DNA of 56,499 bases from Acidimicrobiales bacterium. GTDB taxonomy: Bacteria > Actinomycetota > Acidimicrobiia > Acidimicrobiales > Bog-793. The notes below the pieces were generated by a model, which had not been told where the DNA came from, searched no databases, and saw only the letters and a list, made by a program, of their open reading frames with translations. Below, in pieces: positions 28,082 through 50,356 of this stretch; the first letter of the stretch is position 1; each line of letters opens with the position of its first letter. The position numbers and the translations under genes are program-made. Location: positions 1-56,499 of the forward strand of contig JBAVUF010000341.1 in NCBI GenBank assembly GCA_049696635.1, written 5' to 3'.

Positions 28082-29218
28082 TCAACTCGACGCGATTGCT
28101 TGCTCGACGAGGGCCGCGGTCGCAATCAATAGGTCCTCGCTCCCCGCGGCCGCGACTAGCTGAAGGCTCGCGGGTGGGCGTCCTTCGGCGGGAACAGGCA
28201 AGGCGATCGCTGGGAGGCCGGCGAGACTGATCGGTGCGGTGAGAATCGGCATCCACCCGCCCCTCTCGCCGAGGTAGGGCGGCCGCCGGGCGAGGGTCGG
28301 CAGCGCCAGAACACCTAACCGCTCGACGGTTTTGCGGAACATCGACGACCACTGATCCCCCCGCTTCTTCGCCGAGCTAGCGATTTCGCTCGGAACATCC
28401 GAGTCTCGAAAGCGTTGCAGCGTGTCGGATCCAATCGTCTGTGCCGGGTCGTCGTCGAAGAGCGCGGCGTTACTCACAAGTGCCTCGACACCGACCAAGG
28501 TTTGCTGATCGCGCCAGGCCGATTCCCAGCCGTCGATGGGAACGGATTGCACGTCAAGTTCGGCCCGGCGAAGCGCCGCGTCGATGGCCTCCTCTATGAC
28601 GGGGTCGATCTCGATCTGTGCGTTGAATTCGATCCGGCCGACCGCATCGGCGGGTCTTTCGGCCTGCTCGAATTTCGGTTCGAGAAGGCGCATGGCGCGG
28701 ACGATGTCGGCGACATTCCTTGCCAACGGCCCGACTGTGTCGAAACTCGGCGCGAGCGGCCATACCCCGTCGATTGGAATCCGTCCGTAGGTGGTCTTCA
28801 GCCCGACCACCCCGCAGCAGGCTGCGGGAATGCGTACGGAGCCGGCGGTGTCGGTTCCGAGCGCCACGTCCGTCTCACCCAAGGCGACCGCTGCGGCGGA
28901 GCCTGATGACGAGCCGCCCGGAACGCGCCCCGGATCAGCGGGATTCGGAGGCGTTCCATACCACGGATTCACTCCGGTGACCCCGAACGCAAGCTCGTGC
29001 AGATTGGTCTTCCCGGCGATCCGCCCTCCTTGACCCCTCACGCGGGCGACGCAGCTCGCGTCGCGAGCGGCGACCTCAGCGCGAAGCGCGAGTGCGCGGC
29101 ACCCCGCGGTCGTGATCGATCCCACCACGTCGATGTTGTCCTTCACCGCCACGATCGGGCCATCGCCCGTTCCGTGGTCGAACCTCTCGATCCAGATGGC
29201 ATCGCGCTCCGAGCTCAT
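28082..29218 (-). CDS. Amidase-signature family amidase (short N-terminus)
   Basis: PIVAVKDNIDVVG, GKTNLHELAFGVTG and GGSSSGSAAAVALGETDVALGTDTAGSVRIPAACCGVVGLKTTYGR are present. ATG 29218 is preceded by GGAG at a 9-nt spacing. Track start TTG 29332 adds an acidic low-complexity 38 aa and overlaps the coxG-like gene. Confidence 0.8.
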   Translation of the reverse strand: MSSERDAIWIERFDHGTGDGPIVAVKDNIDVVGSITTAGCRALALRAEVAARDASCVARVRGQGGRIAGKTNLHELAFGVTGVNPWYGTPPNPADPGRVPGGSSSGSAAAVALGETDVALGTDTAGSVRIPAACCGVVGLKTTYGRIPIDGVWPLAPSFDTVGPLARNVADIVRAMRLLEPKFEQAERPADAVGRIEFNAQIEIDPVIEEAIDAALRRAELDVQSVPIDGWESAWRDQQTLVGVEALVSNAALFDDDPAQTIGSDTLQRFRDSDVPSEIASSAKKRGDQWSSMFRKTVERLGVLALPTLARRPPYLGERGGWMPILTAPISLAGLPAIALPVPAEGRPPASLQLVAAAGSEDLLIATAALVEQAIASS

Positions 29219-29303
29219 CGCTTCGGACTCCGCGTACTCCCCGGGCGCTTCGGATTTCGACTGAGGAGCGTGCTCATCGTCCTCCGTGACGTGTGAACAG
29301 CAA

Positions 29304-30029
29304 TCAAAGTTCGGACTTGCGCGAGGCGACAATCCTGCGAACTATCGCGACGAGAGTCAGGAATGCCGCCACCGACCAGAAGGCCGGAACCAATCGTCGG
29401 GCGATCGCGCCTCGTGCGAGTGCAATGACATCAACCGGATCGGTGGATCGGCCCTCGCCGACCGACGCGACTCGAGACTTCGTTGCGACGTCGTTTTCAG
29501 CTAGCGGCGGCTCGACAGCAACCTCATGGCGTGCAGATGTGTCGGGCACGGCTGCGCCAGGTTCGCGTCCGCGCTCGGCGGACACGTTGTGGAGCACCGT
29601 CGATTCGAGATTCTCGACGAACTGACCAAGCAGGGTCGATGAGATCTCGGCGAGTAGGCCTCGGCCGAACTGCGCGACTTTGCCAGTGATCTGGAGATCG
29701 GTCTCCACCTTCACCTTTGTGCCGGTGTCCGTCGGCCCGAGGCGCGCCGTGATCGTGGCCGATGCATTTCCCTGGCCGCGCGCCTCTCTTCCTTCGGCTC
29801 GTAAAGTTGCGACGAGAGCCGCGTCGTCTTTTTCCACAAATCGCGCGACCCCGCGGTACTCCACCGTGATGGCGCCGAGTTTGACCTTGACAACGCCGCG
29901 ATATTCATCCCCCTTGACCTCTCTCAGTTCCGCCCCGGGCATGCAGGGGGCGATGCGTTCGATGTCGGTGAGCACCGTCCAGGTCTCATCGATCGGCGAG
30001 GTCACTTCGAACTCGTTGTTCAGCTTCAT
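29304..30029 (-). CDS. CoxG/SRPBCC-family protein with C-terminal linker and predicted TM anchor
   Basis: MKLNNEFEVTSPIDETWTVLTDIERIAPCMPGAEL...KVETDLQITGKVAQFGRGLL is the CoxG pattern. The C-terminal segment LVPAFWSVAAFLTLVAIV is hydrophobic and followed by RRIVASRK. Confidence 0.75.
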   Translation of the reverse strand: MKLNNEFEVTSPIDETWTVLTDIERIAPCMPGAELREVKGDEYRGVVKVKLGAITVEYRGVARFVEKDDAALVATLRAEGREARGQGNASATITARLGPTDTGTKVKVETDLQITGKVAQFGRGLLAEISSTLLGQFVENLESTVLHNVSAERGREPGAAVPDTSARHEVAVEPPLAENDVATKSRVASVGEGRSTDPVDVIALARGAIARRLVPAFWSVAAFLTLVAIVRRIVASRKSEL

Positions 30030-30736
30030 CTCGCACGCTCCTCACCGCGATCGGGTGCAACCTCTTGATGTACGGAAGGAACGCGACCGCGGTTGGCGTC
30101 TGCCTCCCGCTCAAGCGCCCGCGCCTGACCTGATGCTTCGAGCATGACTGCCTTCACGCGCTCGACGGCTTGCTTGTCCAATTCGGCGAACTCAAAGCCG
30201 AGCGCTAGCGCGGCCGCTTCTGGTTCGTCGGCCACTCGATCGACGAGGCCTATTCGCAGCGCCTCTTCGGCGCCGACCGCTCGCATCGTGAGGCAGAGAT
30301 CCATCGCCCGTCCCCTGCCGATCAAACCCGGCAATGCCCACGAACCAACGGCGAGTCCGTGAGCCGGTCCAGGAAATCGGATCTCGCTGCCAGGCGCGAC
30401 GACGCGAAGATCGCTCGCCACCAAGAGCTGAGCCCCCGCCCCCATCGCATGGCCGCGCGCTGCCGCAAGGATCGGCCGCGGAAACCTGACCATCAGGGAG
30501 TAGAGCTCATAGAGCCGGTCGCTTACCTCCTCACGTTCGCGGTCTGCCATCGAAAGGTCGAGCCCGGAACAGAAGCTGCCGTTTGCGCTCAGGACGACTA
30601 CCGACGTGTCACCGTCATCTTCCGCGAAGGCGTCGATGAGGCACTCGACCATGGCGCGGTCGAGTGCGTTGCGACGTTCGGGGCGATTAAGCCGGAGTCT
30701 GAGGACGTCCGTTCGCGGTCGGTCGAAGTCGATCAC
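30026..30736 (-). CDS. Enoyl-CoA hydratase/isomerase (crotonase) family protein
   Basis: LRLNRPERRNALD, FCSGLDL and AAARGHAMGAGAQLLVASDLRV are present. The stop overlaps the coxG-like start (ATGA). Confidence 0.8.
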   Translation of the reverse strand: MIDFDRPRTDVLRLRLNRPERRNALDRAMVECLIDAFAEDDGDTSVVVLSANGSFCSGLDLSMADREREEVSDRLYELYSLMVRFPRPILAAARGHAMGAGAQLLVASDLRVVAPGSEIRFPGPAHGLAVGSWALPGLIGRGRAMDLCLTMRAVGAEEALRIGLVDRVADEPEAAALALGFEFAELDKQAVERVKAVMLEASGQARALEREADANRGRVPSVHQEVAPDRGEERAR

Positions 30737-30769
30737 GCGGCCACCCGGTCTCGCAACAGATCTCCTCGC

Positions 30770-31552
30770 TCAGATCATCGTGTAGCCGCCGCTCACCGAG
30801 AGCGTCTGGCCGGTGATATAGGAGGCGTGGTCGGAAGCAAACAAAAGCACCGGGCCAACCACGTCATCGGGGCGACCGAGTCGCCGTAGCGGGTACGACC
30901 GAGCGACCTTTTCGAGCAGTTCCTGGGTGAATTGCTCACCCTGCTCGCCGCGCCAGATCGACTCTGCCCCCGACGTGTCCGGATCGCCCGGGGTGAATCC
31001 CGGACAGACGACGTTCAAGGTGATGCCCATTTTTCCGACCTCCTTGGCGAGTGACTTCGTCATCGCAATCACACTCGCCTTCGTGCCGGAATAGACCGCC
31101 TCCCGCCACTCTCCGATTCGGCCTGCATCGGAGGCAATCGACACGACACGACCGCGGCGGCGCTCGACCATGTGGGCGAGAACCGGCCGGGTGAAGTTGA
31201 TGAAACCCCACATGTCGACCGCGATCTCTTTTTCGAACTCCTCCCGCGGTTTGTCCAAGAAGAGACGATCGATCGTCCAGCCTGCGCAGTTGACGAGAAC
31301 GTCGATCGAGCCCAGGCTCGCAATCGCAAACGCGACGGTAGCCTCGACGGATTCGGGATCGGTGACGTCAGTCGTTCGCGTAAGGATCGTTCCCCCGGAC
31401 GCGTCAGCAGCGACGCGCTTCGCCTGCACCTCGTCGATGTCGGCGATCACGACATTCGCGCCTTCCTTGGCGAAGCCGATGCTAATCGCACGTCCGATGT
31501 TCGAGGCGCCGCCCGAAACGACGACGTTCGCACCCGAAAGACCAAGATCCAC
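30770..31552 (-). CDS. SDR-family oxidoreductase (3-hydroxyacyl-CoA/BadH-like)
   Basis: VVSGGASNIGRA, NCAG and YSGTKASV are present. GTG 31552 is preceded by GGGAGAA. Confidence 0.8.
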   Translation of the reverse strand: MDLGLSGANVVVSGGASNIGRAISIGFAKEGANVVIADIDEVQAKRVAADASGGTILTRTTDVTDPESVEATVAFAIASLGSIDVLVNCAGWTIDRLFLDKPREEFEKEIAVDMWGFINFTRPVLAHMVERRRGRVVSIASDAGRIGEWREAVYSGTKASVIAMTKSLAKEVGKMGITLNVVCPGFTPGDPDTSGAESIWRGEQGEQFTQELLEKVARSYPLRRLGRPDDVVGPVLLFASDHASYITGQTLSVSGGYTMI

Positions 31553-31561
31553 GGCTTCTCC

Positions 31562-32563
31562 CTACGCGAAAAGCAGTGACGGCGCGATCGCATCACGCAG
31601 AATCCGCAAGCGCTCAACGCGGCCCGATCCCATCAGCGGAAAGATGAAGCCATCGACGCCAGTCGCATGCAGAGTCGCGAGTCGCGCGTTGCACTCGTCC
31701 GCCGTTCCGGCGATGGCGAGCGTGCGGACGAGTTCTTCACTTATTACCTCCTGATGATCGGCACGCGTCGAAAGATGCTCTGAGTAGTCGTAGGCAGAGC
31801 GCGCGTGCGCGAACTCGGCCCGGTACTGGTTCAAGCTATCTGGAAGGTCGGCGACGTCGGCGAGCAACCGAGCCTGGGCCGTCGCCCAGGAGCGGACGTC
31901 GCGCAACGCCTTGCCGACGTCGTCGGCGACGGACATGGTCGACATCGCACAGATTTCAACTTCGGAGCGGTCGCGTCCTTCCTCGGCGATCCCGTCGAGC
32001 ACCCAGTGGACCTGTCGGCTGAGCACGTCTTGTTGGGCCGGACCCATGACGATCGCACCGTCGGCAAAGCGCCCAGCGAGCCGGCACATCTTCTCCTGGG
32101 TCACCGCCAAGTACACCTTCACCGTCGTCGGGCGGTGCGCGAGCGTAAAGTGCCTTCCCTCCCACTCCCCCTCGCCGCCAGAAAACATTGCTCGAAAGAA
32201 CCTGAGGGACGATTCGATCTCGCGCATCCGTGATGGGGACTTGCCGAGTCCATAGACCGCCGAGTCCCCGGCGCCGAGGCCGAGCAGGGCGCGACCTTGC
32301 GACAATTCGCCGATCGACGCGATCGCGTTGGCGGTGACCGTCGGGTGACGGGTGACAAGATTGGTCACCCCGGTGCCGAGCTCTAGTCGGTCGGTGGCGA
32401 TGGCAGCGGTCGCCATTCCTACATAGACGTCTTTCATCGCCAGCTGCGAGTCGATGAGCCAGATGCGTCCCACCCCCTCGTCCTCCAAGCGCTTGGTAAA
32501 TGCCATCCAATCGGCGAAGGACTCCCGCGGGCTGATCCCGATGCTTATGCTCAAGCGGCTCAC
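31562..32563 (-). CDS. Luciferase-like (LLM class) flavin/F420-dependent oxidoreductase
   Basis: GTG 32563 is preceded by TAAGGAG at a 9-nt spacing. The blocks LSISIGISP...FTKRLEDEGVGRIWLIDS...TGVTNLVTRHPTVTANAIASIGELSQGRALLGLGAGD are present. The 5' extension in the ORF track overlaps the upstream hydrolase gene. Confidence 0.8.
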   Translation of the reverse strand: MSRLSISIGISPRESFADWMAFTKRLEDEGVGRIWLIDSQLAMKDVYVGMATAAIATDRLELGTGVTNLVTRHPTVTANAIASIGELSQGRALLGLGAGDSAVYGLGKSPSRMREIESSLRFFRAMFSGGEGEWEGRHFTLAHRPTTVKVYLAVTQEKMCRLAGRFADGAIVMGPAQQDVLSRQVHWVLDGIAEEGRDRSEVEICAMSTMSVADDVGKALRDVRSWATAQARLLADVADLPDSLNQYRAEFAHARSAYDYSEHLSTRADHQEVISEELVRTLAIAGTADECNARLATLHATGVDGFIFPLMGSGRVERLRILRDAIAPSLLFA

Positions 32564-32594
32564 GCTTATCGATCTCCTTATCTGTTCGATCGCG

Positions 32595-33377
32595 CTACGC
32601 GTCAAGGCTGCGAATGGCTTCGGCAACCTCTCTCGGTCGCTCGACAGGGATTGGGTGTCCGGTGGCGCCAATCACCCGCAGCGAGGCGTTCTTGAGGCCG
32701 TTGGCGATGATTTCTCCGGCGCGCGGCGGGCAGTGCTGGTCGGCTTCGCCAGACATCACGACGGTCGGCGCGACTATGCGTCCGAGCTCGTCGTCGAGGG
32801 GGTGTTCATGCAGGCCCGCCATGGCCCGGCAGGCGTTCGCGAATCCGCGCGGATCGGCCGTCGACTGACGGCGGATGACGAGACCCTCTTCGAGTTCGCC
32901 GGGTTCGTTGCGATAGACGTCCGCCGTGTCCTGGTCAAGGCGCTGGCGGAGCCCCGCTTCGCCCGACGCCACCGCCTCAGCGCGCTCTTGGTACCACTGC
33001 GCCGCCGCGGCATTCACCCGACTCGACGTCGCGACGAGCGCCAGCCCCGCCACACGCTCGGGTTGGTCTATGCCAACGCGCATCGCGACCGTGCCCCCGA
33101 GCGAAAAGCCGGCGATGATCGCTTGGTCGAGGTGGACCGCGTCCATTAGTCCGACGAGATCCGTGGCGAGCTGCGCGAGGGTGCCGTCCGGCTCACCGAG
33201 TTCGGTTTCGCCGTGGCCACGGAGGTCGTAGAGGAACACGTGGTGATCGAGAACGAGGTCGGGTAGCACCTTTCGCCAGGCGCGGTGGTCGTCGGCGAGC
33301 CCGTGCACAAGCACGACTGGTCGCCCGCGCCCGACTTCGCGCCACGAGACCGAGATGCCGTTAGCGGTGGAGCGCAC
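32595..33377 (-). CDS. Alpha/beta-fold hydrolase (3-oxoadipate enol-lactonase / RutD-like)
   Basis: PVVLVHGLADD and the nucleophile elbow GFSLGG are present. GTG 33377 is preceded by AGGAGG at a 5-nt spacing. It overlaps the ligase 3' end by 17 nt. Confidence 0.8.
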   Translation of the reverse strand: MRSTANGISVSWREVGRGRPVVLVHGLADDHRAWRKVLPDLVLDHHVFLYDLRGHGETELGEPDGTLAQLATDLVGLMDAVHLDQAIIAGFSLGGTVAMRVGIDQPERVAGLALVATSSRVNAAAAQWYQERAEAVASGEAGLRQRLDQDTADVYRNEPGELEEGLVIRRQSTADPRGFANACRAMAGLHEHPLDDELGRIVAPTVVMSGEADQHCPPRAGEIIANGLKNASLRVIGATGHPIPVERPREVAEAIRSLDA

Positions 33378-34920
33378 ACTCGCCTCCTGAGTTGAGCGGC
33401 GCGTCGGCGAACGCGCTCGCGGCGCGCTCGCGCAATTCGTTGCGCGCCACTTTGCCGGAGCTACCGAGCGGTAATTCCTCGACCACGAGGAGGCGCTCCA
33501 CCCACTTGTAGTGGGCAAGACCGCGCTCCGCGAGAAATTCGCGTAACGACTCGAGAGTCAACTCGTGTTCAGGACGAACGACAACGCAGGCTGCGATGCG
33601 TTCGCCCAGGTCCGAGTCGGCGAGACCGACAAGACAGACCTCGGCAACATCCCGGTGCTCGAGGAGAACGGCCTCGACCTCGTACGGATTGATGTTCTCC
33701 CCGCCCCTGATGATGATGTCCTTCGTCCGCCCGACGACGTGGACGAAACCGTCGTCGTCGATGAAACCGACGTCGCCAAAGTGCGCCCAGCCGTCCTCCG
33801 CGAACGGGCCGTTTTCCTCGTTCCAGTACCGCTTCTGCACGAGCGGGCCGCGCATGCAGATCTCGCCGACCTTCCCGGGGCCTAACGACCGGCCATCGGA
33901 GTCGCAGATCATCGCCTCGGCGCGTGCGTGCGGCCGTCCGACCGTGTGCCAACGCTTTTCTGGCGGATCGTCCGGGCTCGCGACAGCGAGCTGACCGATG
34001 TCCATCGCGCCGTAGAAAGCACACAGACGCGACCCGGTGAGTCGCTCCCAGTTTTCGGCGAGATCCGGCGGCATCGGCGCGCCGGCTACCGCGGTCACGC
34101 GCGCCAACGCCAGTGCTGCGGGATCGAACTGCTCGTCGCGAAACATCCGACCGATCATCGTCGGCACGCCGCCGATGACGGTCGCCCGCGACTCTCGGGC
34201 GACCCGAAGCCCGAGGTCGGCAGAGAATCGTCGTTCGCTGGTCATGACGAGACAGGCGCCGACGCGCAGCGAGTACAGGCACATCTCCCCAACGCCCTGG
34301 GAGATCGGCGAGAGCGGCAGTACCCGGTCGTCCGGCACGATGCCGAGCCGGCTCGTGAATCCTTCGAACGTCAGCTGCTTGAGCTCGGCCGAAAGTGCGG
34401 CGAGCTTGGGCGGTCCGGTCGTGCCGGACGTCAGCGCGATCTGGACGATCTCTTCCGGCTGCGTCGGATACGGCTCGATCGCTGCGGTACTGCAACGCCC
34501 GACGGCCGCAACTTGGCCGACGTCGACCACGAGACGAACACCCGGTGCCGACTTCGCGACGTCACGCAGACCGTCAAGGGCCTGCTCGTCGGTAACGGCG
34601 ACGGCAGCTGACGAACGTGAGAGCACTGAGAAAAGCTCATAGCTCCCGAGCGAAGGCGCGAGCGGCAAAGTCACGGCGCCGAGTGCCGGGATGGCGATCT
34701 CGAGCGCGACGTACTCCCACGCATTCGGGAGCGAGACCCCGACGACCTCGCCCCGTTGCACTCCGAGCTCCTCAAGCGCCCGCATCGCGCCCCGAACCCG
34801 ATCGAAGAACTCGGCAAACGAGATCGTCGCGCCGTCCTCATAGATCGCTGGCGCGTCCGGCCGGCGCGCCGCGTGCGCGGCAAGGTAGGTGAGCGGGCGA
34901 TACGGAGCGGGTTCCGTCAT
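33361..34920 (-). CDS. AMP-dependent acyl/aryl-CoA synthetase
   Basis: The AMP-binding motif LTSGTTGPPK is present, with GEICMRGP, the GDVGFIDDDGFVHVVGRTKD hinge region and the C-terminal SGKVAR. ATG 34920 overlaps the upstream stop (ATGA). Confidence 0.9.
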   Translation of the reverse strand: MTEPAPYRPLTYLAAHAARRPDAPAIYEDGATISFAEFFDRVRGAMRALEELGVQRGEVVGVSLPNAWEYVALEIAIPALGAVTLPLAPSLGSYELFSVLSRSSAAVAVTDEQALDGLRDVAKSAPGVRLVVDVGQVAAVGRCSTAAIEPYPTQPEEIVQIALTSGTTGPPKLAALSAELKQLTFEGFTSRLGIVPDDRVLPLSPISQGVGEMCLYSLRVGACLVMTSERRFSADLGLRVARESRATVIGGVPTMIGRMFRDEQFDPAALALARVTAVAGAPMPPDLAENWERLTGSRLCAFYGAMDIGQLAVASPDDPPEKRWHTVGRPHARAEAMICDSDGRSLGPGKVGEICMRGPLVQKRYWNEENGPFAEDGWAHFGDVGFIDDDGFVHVVGRTKDIIIRGGENINPYEVEAVLLEHRDVAEVCLVGLADSDLGERIAACVVVRPEHELTLESLREFLAERGLAHYKWVERLLVVEELPLGSSGKVARNELRERAASAFADAPLNSGGECALHR

Positions 34921-35684
34921 CGCCCCGACCACTTCGGCACTCGCTTTTCGTTGAACGCAGCGGCTCCCTCCGCCGCGTCTTCGCTCGACAACACCTCGGC
35001 GGCGAGCTTGGCGTTCAACTCCCAGAGTTCACCCTCAGAGGTCTCGAGCGAGCGTCGCAACAACTGTTTCGAGGCACGCAGCGCGAGTGGCGCGTTCTGG
35101 GCGATCCGTTGTCCGATCTCTATGGCAGTCTCGAGCGCGCGTCCGCGTTCGACGACGCGGTTGACGAGACCGAGGCGTTCGGCGCGTTCGGCGTCGATCG
35201 TCTCGCCGGTAAACGCGAGCTCGAAAGCCGCGGGCGGAGCGATCCGGCGCGCCAGACGGACGAGGCCCCCGGACGCGGCGAAAAGTCCCCGCTTCACCTC
35301 AGGAAGTCCAAAAGTGGCGTGATCTGCCGCAACAACGAGATCGCAGGCGAGGACAATCTCGAAGCCGCCGCCGACCGCGGCACCGTTGACCGCGGCGATG
35401 AGGGGAAACGGAAAATCACGGCGCACAATGCCGGCAAATCCTCCCGGGACGAGATTGATGGAATCCGCCTCACCACGGCGCACGGCTCCGAGGTCCATTC
35501 CGGCGCAAAAGACGCGATCTCCGGCGCCGGTGAGCACGACGGCGCGCACCTCGTCGTCGTGCTCGAGCTCGTCAAAAACGTTGGCGAGGGCGTGCGACGT
35601 TTCGAAATCGATCGCGTTTGCCACCTTCTCCCGGTCGATGACGAGGATCTCCACCGCACCGCGGCGCTGCCGACCGAGCGGCAT
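34917..35684 (-). CDS. Enoyl-CoA hydratase (crotonase family)
   Basis: FCAGMDL, IAAVNGAAVGGGFEIVLACDLVVA and FGLPEVKRGL are present. ATG 35684 shares 1 nt with the TetR stop (TGATG). Confidence 0.85.
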   Translation of the reverse strand: MPLGRQRRGAVEILVIDREKVANAIDFETSHALANVFDELEHDDEVRAVVLTGAGDRVFCAGMDLGAVRRGEADSINLVPGGFAGIVRRDFPFPLIAAVNGAAVGGGFEIVLACDLVVAADHATFGLPEVKRGLFAASGGLVRLARRIAPPAAFELAFTGETIDAERAERLGLVNRVVERGRALETAIEIGQRIAQNAPLALRASKQLLRRSLETSEGELWELNAKLAAEVLSSEDAAEGAAAFNEKRVPKWSGR

Positions 35685-45973: not shown

Positions 45974-46019
45974 CTCCCTGCCACGACAACGATTGCGACG
46001 TCGACTAATGACCGCGTTC

Positions 46020-47177
46020 TTACTTGCTGATCGTCACTCCGCGGACGTACCAGTTCCACTGGTCGTAGATGTACATCGTGCTCAGGCACTTACCCTTCGA
46101 CACCCGAAGCTTGCCCGAAGTGTCGTAGATCGGGCCGCAGAATAAGTTCTTGCCGCTTTTCATCTGCGCGTATGTGGCGTTGACCTTGGTGCGGACGGAC
46201 TGCGGCACCTTGGAACCCCACGGCGCCAGCCTCAGTCCCGGCCCGAACCCGAACACTTCGATCCTGCCGCCGCGGAACGTCCCGTCGGCAACCTGCTTCG
46301 TCAGCTGCTCCAGCGCCGGAGCCCAGTTGATGATCTGCGACGTCACGAAGGAGTTTGGTCCTGACGAAACGCTGTTGCCCCAGCTGCCGAGTCCCCAGAC
46401 GTGACGCTTCTGCGCGACGACGACGGCAACCGGGTCGTTTTCGGTGGATCCGATGACGTCAGCTCCCGCGTCGATGAGCGCGTTCGCGTCCTCGGTCTCC
46501 TTCGGCGGGTTGTACCACGAGTTGACGACATCGACGATCGCCTTGCAACCAGGATGGGTTGATTGGCAGCCCAGGACGAGCGCGTTGAGCGTTTCGTTCA
46601 CCGGCGCCGGGAGGTTCGAGAACGCCGCAAGGAATCCGATCTTGCCGGTCTTGGTCAAAAGTCCCGCCGCCATACCCTCGAGGTACGCCGGTAACCAGTT
46701 TTCGTCGTAGAGCGAAACGACGTTGTTCGGGAAAGGTTTCACGCCGTTGCTTTCGACGCACGCCACCTTCGGGTACTTGGCGCACGCGGCGTAAAAGAGC
46801 GAACCACCGTCACCCGGATCGAAAAGGATCTTCGCTCCAGATGCCACCATGCCCTCGCCGGTAGTCGTCCATTGGCTCGTATATGGCGTGTTCTGCGTGT
46901 AAGTCGCCTTGATCCCGAGGTTGTGCTCGAGATACTGCTGGGCGAGGTACCACTCCTCGTCATAGCCCTTATCGCCGACCGAACCGTCATAGATCCAGCC
47001 GGTCTTCAGCCCGACCGTCGTCGATCTCGACCTTCCCGTCTTGTGCGACGTCTTCGCCGCCGACGCGACCGTCGCACTTCCCGCGACGACAATCGAAAGC
47101 GCGCCCAGTACTAACGCGACCTGGGCCACGCCGGGAAAGCGCTTCCCGAACCTCGAGACTTTCGCTCTTTCGCTCAT
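46020..47177 (-). CDS. BMP-family (Med/PnrA-like) ABC substrate-binding lipoprotein/secreted protein
   Basis: ATG 47177 is preceded by AAGGAGG. The signal-like segment is FPGVAQVALVLGALSIVVAGSATVASAA. The block GWIYDGSVGDKGYDE is typical of the BMP family. Confidence 0.8.
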   Translation of the reverse strand: MSERAKVSRFGKRFPGVAQVALVLGALSIVVAGSATVASAAKTSHKTGRSRSTTVGLKTGWIYDGSVGDKGYDEEWYLAQQYLEHNLGIKATYTQNTPYTSQWTTTGEGMVASGAKILFDPGDGGSLFYAACAKYPKVACVESNGVKPFPNNVVSLYDENWLPAYLEGMAAGLLTKTGKIGFLAAFSNLPAPVNETLNALVLGCQSTHPGCKAIVDVVNSWYNPPKETEDANALIDAGADVIGSTENDPVAVVVAQKRHVWGLGSWGNSVSSGPNSFVTSQIINWAPALEQLTKQVADGTFRGGRIEVFGFGPGLRLAPWGSKVPQSVRTKVNATYAQMKSGKNLFCGPIYDTSGKLRVSKGKCLSTMYIYDQWNWYVRGVTISK

Positions 47178-47251
47178 GCTCCCCCTCCTTAGTTTGTCGA
47201 ATGTGGAATGAACATCGTCGAGCACTCGGTCTCGTGACTTCGCCGCTCGCA

Positions 47252-47965
47252 CTAGGTCGAAGCCTGCGCCGCGGCAGCCGTGACGTGCGCGCCGACACTC
47301 GTGACTCGCGCCGCATCCTCACCGGTACCCTCAACCCGCGCGATCACATCGCTGACCGAAGCGACTTCACAGAATCCCGCAGCAAGCGTCGACAGTACGA
47401 CGCGCTGCACTTCCGCGTGGCTGATTGGACCCCAACCGAGGTCGGGAATGTCGAGCGCCGCGTTCCCATCCGAGAGGAAGATGACTCGGTAATCACGGAA
47501 CATCGCGTCGCGCGCAGTCGATTCGCAGCAAATATTCGTCGCTACCCCGCCGACGATGAGCGTCGTTATTCCTTTCGTGTGCAACACGGTCTCGAGGTCG
47601 GTGTTATAAAACGCGCTGTATCGAGACTTCCGGATGACGATCTCACCTGGGGCCGGTGCGAGCGCATCGACGACCTCGACACCTCGTGTCCCCTCAATCA
47701 AGGTAATCGGACGGCGATCCGAATCGACGAGGTGCGTGAAAGACTCCGCCATACGACCCATGTCGCTGCCGTCGGCGCGGTGCATATGAGAGGTGTACAA
47801 GACTTCGACGCCAGCCCGTCGACAGACATCGATCAGCTCGGCGAGCCTCGGGATGATCTCCCGTCCGGCGGCGCACTCTTGGGGGACGCCGGGCTCGAGA
47901 AAGTCGTTAGTCATGTCGACCACGACGAGCGCGGTCGAATCCCGATCGACGCGGAAACGCTCCAC
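47252..47965 (-). CDS. Isochorismatase-family cysteine hydrolase (RutB/ureidoacrylate amidohydrolase-like)
   Basis: ALVVVDMTNDF, KSRYSAFYNTDL and LIVGGVATNICCESTARDA are present. GTG 47965 is preceded by AAGGGGGAA. Confidence 0.8.
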   Translation of the reverse strand: MERFRVDRDSTALVVVDMTNDFLEPGVPQECAAGREIIPRLAELIDVCRRAGVEVLYTSHMHRADGSDMGRMAESFTHLVDSDRRPITLIEGTRGVEVVDALAPAPGEIVIRKSRYSAFYNTDLETVLHTKGITTLIVGGVATNICCESTARDAMFRDYRVIFLSDGNAALDIPDLGWGPISHAEVQRVVLSTLAAGFCEVASVSDVIARVEGTGEDAARVTSVGAHVTAAAAQAST

Positions 47966-48134
47966 GGGTTCCCCCTTAAAGGTGTCTCACAAATCCGGCG
48001 TCCACGCTCAGGGCAGGCTTGCCCGCGTTCGTGAGTCCTGATTCATGATTTACGTCTGAGATGGGACCATATCTGCGCGAAGCGAGAGCGTCAAGACATC
48101 ACAGCGCCGTCATAGGAGCTATTCGACGGCGGCG

Positions 48135-49529
48135 TTACGCCTCGTGAACCCACAGCGGGGAGGCGCCAGGTGTCGAGCGGAGGTCCTTCCAACGTCGGGG
48201 CTTTCCGTCCACGAGCCCGGTTTCGTCGACTTCGCCGCTGTCTAGCGCGCGTGCCGTGAGTTCGAAACGGAGTCCGGTCTCCTCGCGAAGGCACCTGGAC
48301 AGTTCCACCGTGATCAATCCGATCGCGTCAGCGCCGACCGTCGGTTCGAGCGCGAGCTCCATTGACAGCCGCACCTGGGCGCGAGCGTCGATCCACACGA
48401 CCGCGTTGTAGTCGAGCACGGACGGCGTCGAAAGAACGACGCGGTCCACGATGTTGGGCCAAAGATTGCGATCTCGAATCCGCAACATGTCGTCGATTCG
48501 CCCGACTGAACCGGCCTCGATCCCATCGAAGCAACGCCCGCAGGGACACGAAGTGCCCGAGCGAAAGGTCGCCCGATCGCCGGTACCGTACCGAACTAGC
48601 GGCATCGCACGTCGCCCGAGCACAGTGAGCACGATCTCGCCTTCGTCGCCCTCGTCGACGTGTTCGTTGGTCTTCGGGTCGATCACTTCGAGGACGTATT
48701 GGTCAGGCAAACCGTGGATAACGCCGGGCCTACCTTGGGCAACCATCCCTCGCTCGCATGTCCAGGCTATGCACCGTTGACTGCTGCCATACTGCTCGTA
48801 CAAAGTGGCTCCCCATGCCTCCGACCACCGTTCCGCGATTTCGACGTTCCATCCACCTCCCGTCAAAAGAATCGATTTAAGACCGGGAAAATCGCGCCGC
48901 AATTCGTAACCATTTTCCGAGGCGAGATACATCAGTCGTTGGAGGTAATGGCTCCCGAGGAGCATCTGTTCAACACCATATCGATGCATATATTCGAGAC
49001 GGCCGATTGTGCGTTGACCACCAAGGCGAATCGTGTTGCAGCCGAGCTCGTATAGCGCGAGCGTCCACCAGTAACCCGCTGCCGTCATCCCCACAGGGAA
49101 GTACAACGCGACGACTGTCCCTTCGGTGGCGCCCGCCCAGATAAATCCCGCCTTTTCCGCCCTGACGATCGCGTTCAGATCGGCGGCGTCGAGCGCCTGC
49201 ACCTCGCGTCCTGCAGCGGTCGTTCCACTCGATTCAACGACGTTCACAATCGAAGAGGACGATCCGCCAAGGCGGCTCCCGTAAGGCGGATGGTCGGCGA
49301 TGTCATCGAGGATGTCAGTTTTGCGCACGATTGGGAGATCACGAAGACCCGCCACACCACGGACGCGGTCGAGACGAATGCCTTCCTTCTTGTAACGGGA
49401 TGTGAAGAACGCGTTCTTTTGGATCGCGTCGAGGGTCTCCGCCACAAGGCTGTCTTGAAGTCTTCCGATCTCACGAGCGTCGAGCGTTTCCAATTCTCGA
49501 TCGAAATACCGCGGAGTACTTGTGATCAC
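48135..49529 (-). CDS. PaaK-like adenylate-forming aryl/arylacetate-CoA ligase (coenzyme F390 synthetase family)
   Basis: The N-terminal ELETLDAREIGRLQDSLV...LRDLPIVRKTDI, the SSGTTAAGRE P-loop equivalent, YGSSQ, and LVRYGTGDRA followed by GRIDDMLRIR match the PaaK architecture. GTG 49529 is preceded by GGAGGT. Confidence 0.75.
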   Translation of the reverse strand: MITSTPRYFDRELETLDAREIGRLQDSLVAETLDAIQKNAFFTSRYKKEGIRLDRVRGVAGLRDLPIVRKTDILDDIADHPPYGSRLGGSSSSIVNVVESSGTTAAGREVQALDAADLNAIVRAEKAGFIWAGATEGTVVALYFPVGMTAAGYWWTLALYELGCNTIRLGGQRTIGRLEYMHRYGVEQMLLGSHYLQRLMYLASENGYELRRDFPGLKSILLTGGGWNVEIAERWSEAWGATLYEQYGSSQRCIAWTCERGMVAQGRPGVIHGLPDQYVLEVIDPKTNEHVDEGDEGEIVLTVLGRRAMPLVRYGTGDRATFRSGTSCPCGRCFDGIEAGSVGRIDDMLRIRDRNLWPNIVDRVVLSTPSVLDYNAVVWIDARAQVRLSMELALEPTVGADAIGLITVELSRCLREETGLRFELTARALDSGEVDETGLVDGKPRRWKDLRSTPGASPLWVHEA

Positions 49530-49750
49530 GATCGCGAAGACCTCCGCGTCATTATTGGCATCCCTTCCTCGTCACCCGACGCTGGAGCAACCAATGCTCG
49601 CTGATTCCTTACTTCCTTCTCTCGAATTCTGCAGGAAGATCGCGGCTTCGGCTGTCTACCAGCGGAGTTCACGGCTTTCAACAAGCAGGGACGCGGTCGG
49701 TTGCGCTCGTCGCGCGCGCATAGCAACGAGTGGTTCCCAGTCAGTCGTCG

Positions 49751-50356
49751 TTAACGCGTCGAGTCGTCCACAACCTCGGCACCGCGTCGGGTCAACTCGC
49801 CCACAGTGGCATCCGTAATGCCCTCCGGTTCAGCCAAGTCCGCGCAAAGATCCAGCAGAACCCGGGTGTGAAGTCCGTTTTCGAGTGCGGCAAGCGCCGT
49901 TGCCTTAACGCAGACGCTCGTCGCAATCCCGACAACGTCGACGGATTCGACCTCTTGATTTTTGAGCCATTCAGCGAGCGGCACGCCATCGATATCTTCA
50001 CCTTCGAATCCCGAATATGCAGCAGCGTACGCGCCTTTGCGGAAAACGCTGTCGAACACCTTGGACACATCGACCATCGATCCGAGATTCGGGTGGAACT
50101 CGGCGCCGTCCGTATTCGCGATGCAGTGCACCGGCCACGAGTCAACCCAATCCGGTGGGTCGCCAAAGTGCCCTTTGGGGTCTACGTGCCAATCTTGTGT
50201 GGCAGTAACCGCCGCGTATGACCCGCCAAATTGAGCGAGGTACTCGGAGACCCGAGATGCGCACGACGCGCCGCCAGGTACAGGGAGTGAGCCTCCCTCG
50301 CAGAAATCCCGCTGCAGGTCGACGACGATGAGGGCGCTAGGCCTACATTTCGACAT
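49751..50356 (-). CDS. pncA: Nicotinamidase/pyrazinamidase
   Basis: ALIVVDLQRDFCEGGSLPVPGG, TQDWH, WPVHCIANTDGAEFHP, YSGFEG and VDVVGIATSVCV (catalytic Cys) follow the PncA pattern throughout. Confidence 0.85.
   Translation of the reverse strand: MSKCRPSALIVVDLQRDFCEGGSLPVPGGASCASRVSEYLAQFGGSYAAVTATQDWHVDPKGHFGDPPDWVDSWPVHCIANTDGAEFHPNLGSMVDVSKVFDSVFRKGAYAAAYSGFEGEDIDGVPLAEWLKNQEVESVDVVGIATSVCVKATALAALENGLHTRVLLDLCADLAEPEGITDATVGELTRRGAEVVDDSTR

What the first reader, a model, noticed from the sequence alone, without database searches (positions are those of the whole stretch)
28082..50356. 22 co-directional genes joining a nucleoside-type importer, PncA, aryl-CoA ligases, a Mo-hydroxylase and a Bad-like CoA module: candidate undescribed CoA-dependent N-heterocyclic amide/acid pathway
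From pncA (50356) to the terminal amidase (28082), every gene is on the minus strand. Ten junctions are overlaps or direct abutments:
- GTGA at 44351 and 41281.
- ATGA at 40160, 39303, 36421, 34917 and 30026.
- TAAATG at 38811.
- TGATG at 35684.
- A 17-nt overlap at 33361-33377.

The only plausible terminator hairpin follows the last gene.

The gene content suggests this route:
- **Deamidation:** PncA and a RutB-like hydrolase.
- **Uptake:** a BMP-family ABC system, normally for purine/pyrimidine-like ligands.
- **Thioesterification:** a PaaK-like ligase plus an AMP-ligase.
- **Ring hydroxylation:** a coxMSL-ordered Mo enzyme with CoxG.
- **Hydration, oxidation and ring hydrolysis:** two crotonases plus an SDR, as in BadK/BadH/BadI, together with an LLM and an alpha/beta hydrolase.
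- **C-C cleavage:** a thiolase with its DUF35 partner.
- **Final amide hydrolysis:** an AS amidase.

The described aerobic nicotinate/pyrazine-type routes I know hydroxylate free acids. A CoA-ester-based variant, analogous to furoyl-CoA dehydrogenase logic, would be new.
Basis: inference. Interest (0 to 1): 0.75.

Follow-up and report, generated by a model that had tools for sequence, protein, structure and literature searches.

The report
Orphan N-heterocycle CoA catabolic gene island
A 22.7-kb block of 22 same-strand genes, conserved in uncultured soil Acidimicrobiia, most likely breaks down a nitrogen-containing ring acid or amide (best guess: something nicotinamide- or nicotinate-like) through coenzyme-A thioesters; no described pathway matches it, but the substrate is unproven.

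Summary
There are 22 minus-strand genes from 50356 to 28082, and all ten stated overlaps or abutments are real. A relative that is ~95% identical in DNA loses synteny at ~27950 and ~50611, so the block is one discrete unit. Gene order is conserved in at least 8 Acidimicrobiia/Actinomycetes MAG populations.

- The LLM is an F420/Mer-type reductase, not an oxygenase.
- The second crotonase lacks both catalytic glutamates and is EchA6-like, not BadI-like.
- The binding protein is closest to AtzT, which binds free guanine and hydroxy-triazine rather than nucleosides.

A conserved 18-bp palindrome sits behind a promoter-like site at the head of the rutB-like-to-amidase operon, in this window and in its relatives.

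More distant loci keep the PaaK-like ligase, cupin, LLM, SDR, alpha/beta-hydrolase and an amide hydrolase, but have a different Mo hydroxylase or none. The hydroxylase therefore looks like a peripheral add-on.

Best reading: a new CoA- and F420-dependent reductive route for a hydroxylated N-heterocyclic acid. All steps and the substrate are inferred.

The parts
49751..50356 (-). pncA-like nicotinamidase/pyrazinamidase-type cysteine hydrolase (201 aa)
   Evidence: Pfam Isochorismatase 78 bits. NCBIfam nicotinamidase/pyrazinamidase model scores 106 bits, below its cutoff of 174. Carries D13, K107, C159 and a QDWH..H..H metal motif. A pncA-like gene sits in the same position in L012 (88%) and L015 (51%).
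48135..49529 (-). PaaK-like (phenylacetate-CoA-ligase-like) acyl/aryl-CoA ligase (464 aa)
   Evidence: Pfam AMP-binding. NCBIfam PaaK models score 87-130 bits, far below their cutoffs. Closest PDB entries are PaaK 4r1l and 2-hydroxyisobutyryl-CoA synthetase. Conserved next to the cluster in L001, L008, L012, L013/14 and L015, and fused by overlap to the cupin gene in L017 and L018.
48066..48094 (-). Sigma-70-like promoter TTGACG-17-TATGGT upstream of the rutB-like gene
   Evidence: It is the only promoter-like site found in 39500-51500, and is partly conserved in the alignment of orthologous intergenic regions. A consensus match only.
48030..48047 (-). Operator-like 18-bp palindrome CATGAATC-AG-GACTCACG (perfect form CATGAGTC-AG-GACTCATG in relatives); presumed site of the embedded TetR
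   Evidence: Unique in the window, with 0 expected by chance. Invariant core in 5 orthologous intergenic regions. Variants lie at the head of the transporter operon in L002, L009 and L003, and twice in the divergent TetR/PaaK-like region of L013/14. Binding by TetR is inferred.
47252..47965 (-). RutB/BiuH-like isochorismatase-family cysteine amidohydrolase (237 aa)
   Evidence: Pfam 146 bits. RutB scores 100.6 against a cutoff of 378, and BiuH 95 against 370. Closest PDB entry is 3irv, 'cysteine hydrolase'. D17, K113 and C147 are present.
46020..47177 (-). BMP-family substrate-binding lipoprotein
   Evidence: Pfam Bmp. Closest solved structures are AtzT 6pi5 (142 bits) and Brucella 3s99. AtzT binds guanine and 2-hydroxyatrazine (PMC6834077).
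44351..45973 (-). ABC ATPase with two ABC_tran domains
43137..44354 (-). ABC permease 1 (BPD_transp_2)
42202..43128 (-). ABC permease 2 (BPD_transp_2)
41727..42149 (-). Small monocupin of a rare family with no Pfam model (140 aa). It is one of the best conserved proteins of the close loci and the best conserved in the distant ones.
   Evidence: No Pfam, NCBIfam or PDB sequence hit. 88-89% identical in L001 and L008 where the other proteins are 52-87%. Invariant residues W59, H60, E62, H64, H81, R102, R104, Y113, H115 and Y125. AF2 model pLDDT 87. Foldseek top hits are generic cupins with TM about 0.55. Only 70 representatives at E<=1e-10 among 1.84 billion.
41281..41679 (-). DUF35/OB-fold protein with Cys4 zinc ribbon; partner of the thiolase
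   Evidence: Pfam OB_ChsH2_C. CxxC...CxxC motif. GTGA overlap with the thiolase gene.
40160..41284 (-). SCP2-type thiolase (374 aa)
   Evidence: Pfam Thiolase_N/C_1. Closest PDB entry is BbsB, the benzoylsuccinyl-CoA thiolase subunit, 7pxp at 175 bits. The nucleophile Cys and the His residues align.
39303..40163 (-). Mo-hydroxylase FAD subunit (CoxM-type)
   Evidence: Pfam FAD_binding_5.
38812..39306 (-). Mo-hydroxylase 2x[2Fe-2S] subunit (CoxS-type)
   Evidence: Pfam Fer2 and Fer2_2. Both Cys motifs present.
36421..38811 (-). Mo-hydroxylase molybdopterin subunit (CoxL-type, 796 aa)
   Evidence: Pfam. No NCBIfam equivalog cutoff reached. Closest PDB entry is quinoline 2-oxidoreductase 1t3q (380 bits), ahead of CoxL 8uem, KdhL 7dqx and CODH; HcrA scores 220. 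Loop GAYRGVGG rather than the CODH VAYRCSFR; GVGEAG glutamate present. Arthrobacter NdhL 33%, E 7e-105.
35684..36424 (-). TetR-family regulator embedded in the operon (246 aa)
   Evidence: Pfam TetR_N. ATGA overlap with coxL and TGATG with ECH1. Orthologues are 67-83% identical in relatives.
34917..35684 (-). Canonical crotonase/enoyl-CoA hydratase (ECH1)
   Evidence: Pfam ECH_1 197 bits. NCBIfam PRK08252 scores 296.7, above its cutoff of 282. Both catalytic Glu residues present, E109 and E129.
33361..34932 (-). FadD-type AMP-forming acyl-CoA ligase
   Evidence: Pfam AMP-binding and AMP-binding_C. No specific NCBIfam or PDB relative.
32595..33377 (-). Alpha/beta hydrolase similar to PcaD (3-oxoadipate enol-lactonase)
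   Evidence: Pfam. PcaD model scores 139 against a cutoff of 256, and RutD 79 against 238. GFSLG nucleophile elbow. 63% identical in the distant loci L016 and L019.
31562..32563 (-). Luciferase-like F420-dependent (Mer-like) oxidoreductase
   Evidence: Pfam Bac_luciferase. 18 of the 21 NCBIfam hits, including all the strongest, are F420-dependent LLM families; three weak FMN or unspecified LLM families also hit. All seven PDB hits are F420 enzymes: six Mer entries, best 1z69 at 111 bits, plus F420-dependent glucose-6-phosphate dehydrogenase.
30770..31552 (-). SDR similar to BadH (2-hydroxycyclohexanecarboxyl-CoA dehydrogenase)
   Evidence: BadH model TIGR03206 scores 224 bits against a cutoff of 431. 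YxxxK motif present. 68-70% identical in the distant loci L016 and L019.
30026..30736 (-). Non-canonical crotonase-fold protein (ECH2), EchA6-like
   Evidence: Pfam ECH_1. Q and A replace the two catalytic Glu residues. Closest PDB entry is M. tuberculosis EchA6, which has the same substitutions in the alignment.
29304..30029 (-). CoxG (SRPBCC) protein with a C-terminal hydrophobic anchor
   Evidence: Pfam COXG 68.8 bits. Hydrophobic segment at residues 212-230.
28082..29332 (-). Amidase-signature amidase; the likely true start is ATG 29218 (378 aa)
   Evidence: Pfam Amidase 219 bits. PRK08310 scores 247 against a cutoff of 391. GGSSSG motif at residue 139. Homologues are 376-378 aa and align from residues 29-38.
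28002..28031 (-). Hairpin with an 8-bp stem followed by TTCTCGC; a weak terminator candidate
   Evidence: Not called by the consensus scan.

Best explanation
This is a self-contained catabolic island, 27950-50611, probably from an Acidimicrobiales bacterium. It most likely degrades a nitrogen-containing ring carboxamide or carboxylate. My best single guess is nicotinamide/nicotinate or a close pyridine or diazine analogue.

Every step below is inferred from family membership, motifs and conserved gene linkage.

1. Uptake. A BMP-type ABC system of the AtzT/free-base clade imports the planar heterocycle.
2. Deamidation. The pncA-like and/or RutB-like cysteine hydrolases convert a carboxamide to the acid.
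3. Hydroxylation. The CoxMSL-type molybdenum hydroxylase hydroxylates the carbon next to the ring nitrogen. CoxG tethers the enzyme to the membrane so that electrons go to the respiratory chain. This most likely happens on the free acid.
4. Activation. The PaaK-like ligase makes the CoA thioester.
5. Ring reduction. The F420H2-dependent Mer-like LLM delivers hydride to the electron-poor pyridone-CoA ring and removes its aromaticity.
6. Hydration and oxidation. ECH1 hydrates the remaining enoyl-CoA double bond, and the BadH-like SDR oxidises the product to a beta-oxo (cyclic imide-like) acyl-CoA.
7. Ring opening and trimming. The PcaD-like alpha/beta hydrolase, the cupin and the EchA6-like ECH2 open and trim the ring. 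Their order and exact chemistry are unknown.
8. C-C cleavage. The BbsB-like thiolase with its DUF35 partner cleaves a branched beta-oxoacyl-CoA.
9. Ammonia release. The AS amidase releases the ring nitrogen as ammonia from a half-amide.
10. Second ligase. The FadD-type ligase re-activates a free-acid intermediate.

Regulation. The embedded TetR probably represses the 20-gene rutB-like-to-amidase operon at the conserved palindrome behind its promoter. pncA and the PaaK-like gene are separate, adjacent transcription units.
For: A discrete, conserved unit:
- All ten junctions are verified.
- Synteny with ~95%-identical contigs breaks exactly at the ends of the block.
- Gene order recurs in L001/7, L002/9, L003, L006, L008, L010/13/14, L011, L012 and L015.

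A single regulatory logic:
- The conserved palindrome is unique in the window and lies at the operon head in every architecture, next to the orthologous TetR.

A nitrogen heterocycle as substrate:
- The SBP is closest to AtzT, which binds guanine and hydroxy-atrazine.
- CoxL is closest to Qor, NdhL and KdhL and has a non-CODH active-site loop.
- The window encodes three amide hydrolases, and every distant variant keeps some amide hydrolase.
- pncA has nicotinamidase motifs.

CoA chemistry:
- Two ligases, and a canonical hydratase with both Glu residues.
- A BadH-like SDR.
- A thiolase that keeps its catalytic Cys.

A reductive step:
- The LLM matches mainly F420-dependent families, and its closest solved structures are F420 enzymes, chiefly Mer.

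Core versus accessory parts:
- The cupin, SDR and hydrolase are 63-75% identical in loci where the ligase and LLM are 33-56% identical and the Mo enzyme is only 33-38% identical or missing.
Against: - No protein reaches an NCBIfam equivalog cutoff, so no function is assigned by homology.
- The substrate is unknown. Nothing distinguishes nicotinate from picolinate, isonicotinate, pyrazine or pyrimidine carboxylates, or cyclic imides.
- pncA is a common NAD-salvage gene, it is only 51% conserved in L015, and it is missing in L013/14.
- Neither pncA nor the PaaK-like gene has the operator upstream.
- F420 use is inferred from family membership only, and no F420 biosynthesis genes are in the window.
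- ECH2 may be catalytically inert, as EchA6 is.
- The roles of the cupin, the DUF35/thiolase pair and the second ligase are guesses.
- All relatives are MAGs, so there is no physiology to lean on.
Confidence: 0.55

Rival explanations
1. The acid is thioesterified first, and the Mo hydroxylase then hydroxylates the heteroaryl-CoA ester, as furoyl-CoA dehydrogenase does in the Hmf/Trudgill pathway. Bad-like ring processing follows.
For: - A ligase, a Mo hydroxylase and crotonase-fold proteins are clustered as in hmfABCDE, where hydroxylation of the CoA ester is documented (PMC3223595).
- The thiolase, coxMSL, TetR, ECH1, ligase and hydrolase genes are translationally coupled.
- A thioester would activate the ring.
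Against: - The Mo enzyme is dispensable or replaced in distant versions of the same core (L018 and L019 have none; L016 and L017 are 33-38% identical), while the PaaK-like ligase is always kept.
- CoxL is much closer to free-substrate N-heterocycle hydroxylases (Qor 380 bits) than to the one solved CoA-ester enzyme, HcrA (220 bits).
- All known nicotinate and isonicotinate hydroxylases act on free acids.
Confidence: 0.22
2. The substrate is not an aromatic heterocycle. It could be a saturated or partly oxidised cyclic amide, imide or ureide, or a pyrimidine- or purine-derived acid (for example a piperidine or pyrrolidone carboxylate, a cyclic imide or an orotate-like compound). The Mo enzyme would then play a dehydrogenase role unrelated to dearomatisation.
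For: - RutB/BiuH-like, RutD/PcaD-like and AtzE-like similarities.
- L017 pairs the core with a dihydropyrimidinase-type Amidohydro_1, a CN_hydrolase and an Amdase-family protein.
- The SBP clade binds purine bases.
Against: - None of the Rut, Biu or Atz equivalog cutoffs is approached.
- There is no RutA-type FMN LLM.
- An F420 hydride donor together with a Qor/Ndh-like hydroxylase is best explained by an aromatic ring that must first be hydroxylated and then reduced.
Confidence: 0.15
3. The block is a chance mosaic of unrelated operons placed side by side: nucleobase salvage transport, a CODH-like dehydrogenase and lipid beta-oxidation.
For: - Every family present is common in Actinomycetota.
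- Three intergenic gaps of 74-221 nt allow separate promoters.
- pncA and the PaaK-like gene have lower GC3 than the rest.
Against: - Stop/start overlaps cross every supposed boundary.
- The same gene set recurs in shuffled order in other lineages.
- A conserved operator sits at the operon head.
- Synteny breakpoints bracket the whole block.
- CoxL lacks the CODH active-site loop.
Confidence: 0.05

Closest known systems
Furoate (Trudgill/Hmf) pathway, hmfABCDE (PMC3223595)
   Same: A heteroaromatic acid, an acyl-CoA synthetase, a three-subunit molybdenum hydroxylase of the xanthine-dehydrogenase family and a crotonase-fold CoA enzyme are encoded together. The ring is opened after hydroxylation next to the heteroatom.
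   Different: Here there are about 15 further genes: an F420-type reductase, an SDR, a thiolase with DUF35, a cupin, three amide hydrolases and a BMP importer. A reductive step is implied. Hydroxylation of the CoA ester is not supported here. The gene order differs.
Reductive nicotinate routes via 6-hydroxynicotinate and 1,4,5,6-tetrahydro-6-oxonicotinate (Eubacterium barkeri, Azorhizobium caulinodans; summarised in PMC3511419)
   Same: The logic is the same: Mo-dependent hydroxylation next to the ring nitrogen, then ring reduction, then hydrolytic C-N cleavage.
   Different: The known routes use free acids, a ferredoxin-linked Fe-S flavoprotein reductase and an amidohydrolase-fold enamidase. 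None of these families is in the cluster. Here the pathway would use CoA esters, an F420 LLM and beta-oxidation-like enzymes instead.
Isonicotinate catabolism in Mycobacterium sp. INA1 (Kretzer, Frunzke and Andreesen 1993; the reference is cited in PMC4548258, the pathway details are from my own recollection)
   Same: As I recall it: two Mo hydroxylations on the free acid, then CoA activation of the dihydroxy acid (citrazyl-CoA), reduction to a dioxopiperidine-carboxyl-CoA and hydrolysis. This is the only described aerobic actinobacterial N-heterocycle route with CoA esters.
   Different: No genes are known for that pathway, as far as I know. It uses NADPH and two hydroxylases, while this window has only one Mo enzyme. 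The hydratase, SDR and thiolase here are not required in that scheme.
Bad pathway for cyclohex-1-ene-carboxyl-CoA (BadK/BadH/BadI)
   Same: An enoyl-CoA hydratase followed by a 2-hydroxyacyl-CoA dehydrogenase on a ring CoA ester. The SDR's best family hit is BadH.
   Different: The BadH score is about half the cutoff. ECH2 lacks catalytic residues and resembles EchA6, not BadI or MenB. Ring hydrolysis here is more likely done by the alpha/beta hydrolase.
F420-dependent hydride transferases of picrate/dinitrophenol degradation (Npd; from my own knowledge)
   Same: LLM-fold, Mer-like enzymes that use F420H2 to add hydride to an electron-poor aromatic ring.
   Different: Those substrates are nitroaromatics, not CoA esters.

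Membership tests
Furoyl-CoA pathway (hmfABCDE) | HmfA, HmfD and HmfE homologues at 40% similarity or more, in the conserved order hmfABCDE (PMC3223595) | tested here: inconclusive
   No Hmf sequences were available for comparison. The gene order here is M-S-L...ECH-ligase, embedded among 22 genes. The best match in 72,556 plasmids, which include many Burkholderiales replicons, is 37% or lower.
Furoyl-CoA pathway (hmfABCDE) | The Mo enzyme acts on the CoA thioester | not testable with these tools
   Indirect evidence argues against it: the Mo enzyme is absent or replaced in L016-L019.
Aerobic nic cluster (NicAB, NicC, NicX, NicD, NicF, NicE) | An FAD monooxygenase NicC and a 2,5-dihydroxypyridine dioxygenase NicX are present | tested here: not met
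   No FAD-monooxygenase or NicX-like domain occurs among the 22 proteins.
Eubacterium barkeri nicotinate fermentation cluster | 6-hydroxynicotinate reductase and an amidohydrolase-fold enamidase | tested here: not met
   There is no Amidohydro_1 protein and no Fe-S flavoprotein reductase in the block. An Amidohydro_1 gene at 14254-15663 lies outside the block, in a different plus-strand region.
Aerobic CO dehydrogenase (form I CoxMSL) | Active-site loop VAYRCSFR in CoxL, and the NCBIfam CO_dehy_Mo_lg cutoff | tested here: not met
   The loop is GAYRGVGG. TIGR02416 scores 375 bits against a cutoff of 991.
4-hydroxybenzoyl-CoA reductase (HcrCAB) | Equivalog scores for the alpha, beta and gamma subunits | tested here: not met
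   Scores against cutoffs are 313 vs 995, 83 vs 405 and 117 vs 258. HcrA is only the eighth-best PDB hit.
Bad pathway (BadK/BadH/BadI) | A BadH equivalog, and a BadI-type ring-cleaving crotonase | tested here: not met
   BadH scores 224 against a cutoff of 431. ECH2 lacks catalytic residues and is closest to EchA6; MenB-type hits score only about 65 bits.
Rut pyrimidine pathway (RutA-G, RutR) | An FMN-dependent RutA LLM, and RutB and RutD equivalogs | tested here: not met
   RutB scores 100.6 against 378 and RutD 79 against 238. The LLM matches mainly F420 families and no RutA model.
Nicotinamidase/pyrazinamidase PncA | Asp-Lys-Cys triad, the metal site (D, H, H), and the NF008623 cutoff | tested here: inconclusive
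   The triad and the QDWH..H..H motif are present, but the score is 106, below the cutoff of 174.
F420-dependent LLM oxidoreductases | Similarity to F420 rather than FMN subfamilies; F420 binding | tested here: inconclusive
   The top NCBIfam and PDB hits are F420 enzymes, but all are below the subfamily cutoffs. Cofactor binding cannot be tested here.
BMP/PnrA-family ABC importers | A Bmp-domain SBP with a tandem ABC ATPase and two BPD_transp_2 permeases | tested here: met
   The closest structure is AtzT.

The most novel reading that the evidence does not exclude
The island encodes the first CoA-thioester- and F420-dependent dearomatising pathway for a pyridine carboxylate such as nicotinate or 6-hydroxynicotinate in aerobic Actinomycetota. 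An LLM hydride transferase would play the part that benzoyl-CoA reductase plays for benzoate. A previously unrecognised metal-cupin family, kept at 65-75% identity in distant relatives, including one whose protein carries a Candidatus Dormibacteria name, would catalyse a new ring-processing step on a cyclic-imide-type acyl-CoA.
Probability: 0.2. Interest if true: 0.8.

Novelty: new variant of a known kind. Interest (0 to 1): 0.6.

Why it matters
N-heterocyclic acids are abundant soil nitrogen and carbon sources. They include nicotinate from NAD turnover, picolinate, dipicolinate from spores, and drug and pesticide metabolites. Their known aerobic catabolism runs through free acids and oxygenases.

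If this island works as proposed, it would have several consequences:
- A conserved CoA- and F420-dependent reductive alternative would add a fourth strategy after hydroxylation.
- It would extend F420 biology to heteroaryl-CoA dearomatisation.
- It would give a function to a rare cupin family.
- It would say something about what uncultured Acidimicrobiia eat.

The conserved TetR operator and the SBP offer cheap experimental handles for finding the true substrate.

Tried and rejected
- Rfam scans found nothing, so there is no riboswitch clue to the ligand. I scanned the whole window at gathering thresholds and 47800-51900 at E<=1.
- Repeat searches and alignments of the regions upstream of pncA and the PaaK-like gene showed no shared operator.
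- The cupin had no sequence match in PDB or in plasmids. Foldseek gave only generic cupins, so no function could be transferred.
- NCBIfam gave no equivalog-level assignment for any of the 22 proteins.
- PDB searches for the FadD-type ligase and the RutB-like hydrolase returned only generic or uncharacterised relatives.
- Literature searches for nicotinoyl-, picolinoyl-, isonicotinoyl- or pyrazinoyl-CoA catabolism, and for combinations of F420, CoA ligase and Mo hydroxylase, found nothing relevant.
- The Kretzer 1993 paper was not available.
- I considered and rejected CO dehydrogenase, 4-hydroxybenzoyl-CoA reductase, the Rut pathway, the s-triazine/biuret pathway (no cyanuric-acid hydrolase, and CoA enzymes would be unexplained) and the classical nic cluster (see the membership tests).

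Full report
**1. Observation**

The region 28082-50356 contains 22 consecutive minus-strand ORFs with high third-position GC.

- GTGA at 44351 and 41281.
- ATGA at 40160, 39303, 36421, 34917 and 30026.
- TAAATG at 38811.
- TGATG at 35684.
- A 17-nt overlap at 33361-33377.

The larger gaps are 221 nt (pncA to PaaK-like), 169 nt (PaaK-like to rutB-like), 74 nt (rutB-like to BMP) and 85 nt (CoxG to amidase, if the amidase starts at ATG 29218 as its 376-378-aa homologues suggest).

The 'only terminator' claim is weak. The consensus scan finds none after the last gene, although a hairpin with an 8-bp stem plus TTCTCGC lies at 28002-28031.

**2. Gene content**

Pfam and NCBIfam confirm, in order: a pncA-like isochorismatase-fold hydrolase, a PaaK-like ligase, a RutB/BiuH-like hydrolase, a BMP SBP, a tandem ABC ATPase, two permeases, DUF35, an SCP2-type thiolase, CoxM, CoxS, CoxL, ECH, a FadD-type ligase, an alpha/beta hydrolase, an LLM, an SDR, a second ECH, CoxG and an AS amidase.

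- A TetR regulator (35684-36424), translationally coupled to coxL and ECH1.
- A 140-aa protein (41727-42149) with no Pfam, NCBIfam or PDB sequence match.

No protein reaches an NCBIfam equivalog cutoff, so none of the functions is assigned by homology.

**3. Refinements from closer inspection**

- **LLM.** 18 of its 21 NCBIfam hits, including all the strongest, are F420-dependent families. All seven of its PDB hits are F420 enzymes, chiefly Mer. It is therefore a reductase type, not an oxygenase.
- **ECH1 and ECH2.** ECH1 has both crotonase glutamates. ECH2 has Q and A at those positions. Its closest structure is M. tuberculosis EchA6, which carries the same substitutions. ECH2 is not a BadI analogue.
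- **Thiolase.** It keeps the nucleophile Cys and is closest to BbsB.
- **CoxL.** It has the loop GAYRGVGG rather than the CODH loop, and it has the catalytic GVGEAG glutamate. The closest solved enzyme is quinoline 2-oxidoreductase at 380 bits. HcrA, the one solved CoA-ester enzyme, scores only 220 bits. Arthrobacter nicotine dehydrogenase is an equally good match at 33% identity, E 7e-105.
- **SBP.** Its closest structures are AtzT, which binds guanine and 2-hydroxyatrazine (PMC6834077), and a Brucella BMP protein of the same family. This points to a free planar heterocycle rather than a nucleoside.
- **pncA.** It carries the catalytic triad and the QDWH..H..H metal motif of nicotinamidases but scores below the equivalog cutoff.
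- **CoxG.** It ends in a hydrophobic anchor.

**4. The 140-aa protein**

An alignment of 29 homologues shows invariant W59, H60, E62, H64, H81, R102, R104, Y113, H115 and Y125. The AlphaFold model (pLDDT 87) is a monocupin, and Foldseek returns only generic cupins with TM about 0.55.

The family is tiny: 70 representatives at E<=1e-10 and 7 at E<=1e-30 among 1.84 billion cluster representatives. None occur in plasmids. It is among the best conserved proteins of the close loci (88-89% against 52-87% for the others), and the best conserved in the distant ones.

**5. Conservation elsewhere**

The CoxL subfamily is small: nine hits at 59% identity or above, then a drop to 47% and then to the generic ~40% level.

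Its contigs, all Acidimicrobiales/Actinomycetes MAGs, keep the order rutB-like, BMP ABC, cupin, DUF35, thiolase, coxMSL, TetR, ECH1, ligase, hydrolase, LLM, SDR, ECH2, CoxG, amidase. There are occasional losses: the thiolase module in L002, L003 and L009, and ECH1 and CoxG in L001.

The PaaK-like ligase is also conserved upstream in L001, L008, L012, L013/14 and L015. A pncA-like gene precedes it in L012 and L015, whose further flanks differ.

Two contigs with 94-95% DNA identity align only over 39997-50611 and 27950-37170, with synteny lost beyond 50611 and below 27950. The flanks beyond are unrelated, and a transposase lies nearby in L012. The block is therefore a discrete unit of about 22.7 kb that includes pncA.

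**6. Regulation**

A promoter-like TTGACG-17-TATGGT (48094-48066) precedes the rutB-like gene. Between it and the ribosome-binding site lies CATGAATC-AG-GACTCACG (48030-48047). This site is unique in the window, with 0 expected by chance.

In L001, L007 and L015 the site is the perfect palindrome CATGAGTC-AG-GACTCATG, and it is conserved in L008 and L012. Variants sit upstream of the BMP gene where rutB-like is absent (L002, L009, L003). Two copies lie in the divergent TetR/PaaK-like region of L013/14.

This is the expected operator of the orthologous TetR; binding itself is inferred. It supports one regulon for the 20 genes from rutB-like to amidase. pncA and the PaaK-like gene lack the site in the window, so the block holds at least two or three transcription units.

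**7. Core and accessory parts**

I used the cupin as a marker for more distant loci:

| Locus | Cupin identity | What accompanies it |
|---|---|---|
| L016 | 73% | ECH, hydrolase (63%), thiolase, acyl-CoA dehydrogenase, SDR (68%), PaaK-like ligase (39%), LLM (38%), amidase, and a CoxLSM only 38% identical |
| L017 | 65% | TetR, LLM (56%), PaaK-like ligase overlapping the cupin gene, CoxMSL (33%), BMP ABC, plus CN_hydrolase, Amidohydro_1 and Amdase |
| L018 | 48% | UbiD, M20, PaaK-like ligase overlapping the cupin gene, thiolase, CN_hydrolase, LLM; no Mo enzyme |
| L019 | 75% | ECH, hydrolase (63%), SDR (70%), PaaK-like ligase, LLM, amidase; no Mo enzyme |

The recurrent core is therefore the PaaK-like ligase, the LLM, the cupin and an amide hydrolase, usually with the SDR, the hydrolase, an ECH and a thiolase.

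The Mo hydroxylase is variable. It is no closer to the window's CoxL than thousands of generic homologues are, so it looks independently recruited. This favours a peripheral hydroxylation of the free acid that feeds a common CoA-dependent lower pathway.

**8. Proposed mechanism (all steps inferred)**

1. Import of the free heterocycle.
2. Deamidation by the pncA-like and/or RutB-like hydrolase.
3. Mo-dependent hydroxylation next to the ring nitrogen, with CoxG anchoring the enzyme to the membrane.
4. CoA ligation by the PaaK-like enzyme.
5. F420H2-dependent hydride addition to the pyridone-CoA ring.
6. Hydration by ECH1.
7. Oxidation by the SDR to a beta-oxo, cyclic-imide-like acyl-CoA.
8. Ring opening and trimming by the alpha/beta hydrolase, the cupin and ECH2.
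9. Thiolysis by the thiolase with DUF35.
10. Ammonia release by the AS amidase.

For nicotinate this sequence would lead through 6-hydroxynicotinoyl-CoA and a tetrahydro-6-oxonicotinoyl-CoA towards a glutaramoyl- or glutaryl-CoA-type product. That is a chemically consistent CoA version of the known reductive route.

In L017 an Amidohydro_1 and a CN_hydrolase accompany the core, and no alpha/beta hydrolase or AS amidase was found within the 20 kb examined. This fits an 'imidase plus half-amidase' pair acting on such an intermediate.

**9. Comparison with known systems**

- The Hmf furoate pathway shares the ligase, the Mo hydroxylase and a crotonase-fold enzyme, and it does hydroxylate a CoA ester (PMC3223595). 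It has none of the reductive, thiolytic or amide-hydrolysing parts.
- The three described fates of 6-hydroxynicotinate all use free acids (PMC3511419). Their signature enzymes (NicC and NicX, a second hydroxylase, or the Hnr reductase with enamidase) are absent here.
- The isonicotinate pathway of Mycobacterium sp. INA1 is the nearest precedent for CoA esters after hydroxylation. The reference is confirmed in PMC4548258, but the CoA details come from my memory. As far as I know no genes are known for it.
- CO dehydrogenase, 4-hydroxybenzoyl-CoA reductase, Rut and Bad memberships were tested and not met (see the membership table).
- Literature searches found no CoA-dependent catabolism of pyridine carboxylates.

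**10. Verdict**

A new CoA-dependent N-heterocycle or amide pathway is the best reading, at a confidence of about 0.55. The specific substrate, the order of ligation and hydroxylation, and the roles of the cupin, ECH2, the thiolase and the second ligase are unproven.

It is a new variant of a known kind: a Mo-hydroxylase-initiated heterocycle catabolic cluster. Interest is 0.6. That reflects a well-defined and testable orphan pathway with a rare new cupin family. It is held down because the host is uncultured, the function rests on inference alone, and such clusters are common in soil Actinomycetota.

Noticed in passing
window 41727-42149: The 140-aa cupin belongs to a very small family with no Pfam model: 70 representatives at E<=1e-10 among 1.84 billion. 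It has an invariant WHxExH...H...R.R signature. In distant loci (L017, L018) its gene overlaps the stop codon of the PaaK-like ligase gene.
   Followed up: yes
window 48030-48047; L001 794-811; L002 785-802; L013 9612-9629 and 9896-9913: A conserved 18-bp palindrome, CATGAGTC-NN-GACTCATG, sits at the head of the transporter/catabolic operon in every close architecture. It is a likely TetR operator and would serve as a probe for finding the inducer.
   Followed up: yes
window ~27950 and ~50611: DNA identity of about 95% to contigs L011 and L012 stops at both ends of the block, and the flanks are unrelated. L012 has an rve-family transposase 1.5-2.7 kb upstream of pncA. This suggests a movable or recombination-prone island.
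   Followed up: partly
window 1-26000 (mostly + strand): The rest of the window is also rich in catabolic genes: DUF2848, an ECH, two family-III CoA-transferases, an NMT1-type ABC system, a second LLM (7814-8851), another isochorismatase (11794-12561), an Amidohydro_1 (14254-15663), an aldehyde dehydrogenase, a second TetR and an SBP_5/Opp-type transporter with a 477-aa amidase (20632-25953). It may be a second amide or heterocycle module.
   Followed up: partly
window 26023-27654 (-): A 543-aa fusion of a cyclic-nucleotide-binding domain with a thioredoxin-reductase-like flavoprotein lies directly downstream of the island on the same strand, but outside the conserved block.
   Followed up: no
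L011 2241-3807: In the 95%-identical relative, the FadD-type ligase gene is split over three reading frames. This is either assembly frameshifts in the MAG or a pseudogene.
   Followed up: no
L004 6119-12328 and L005: A more distant CoxL (45%) keeps the DUF35-thiolase-coxM-coxS-coxL linkage but pairs it with an Amidohydro_2 enzyme, a zinc ADH, a divergent TetR and a Peripla_BP_6 ABC system. The thiolase/DUF35 pair seems more tightly tied to this Mo-enzyme lineage than the rest of the cluster, and I have no explanation for that.
   Followed up: partly
window 48135-50356: pncA and the PaaK-like gene have lower third-position GC (0.65-0.68) than most of the island (mostly 0.72-0.82, although ECH2 at 0.69 and CoxG at 0.71 are also low).
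   Followed up: no
window 50357-51790: About 1.4 kb upstream of pncA contains only short ORFs of 89-98 aa. The two I scanned have no Pfam match. The first ~255 bp are conserved with L012.
   Followed up: no
L013/L014 10001-13652: In this variant the PaaK-like gene heads the operon and is followed by an Amidohydro_2 and a glyoxalase-fold protein before the rutB-like gene. TetR, the FadD-type ligase, the hydrolase and the SDR are transcribed divergently. A KstD-like FAD_binding_2 flavoprotein and a 4HBT thioesterase lie nearby.
   Followed up: no
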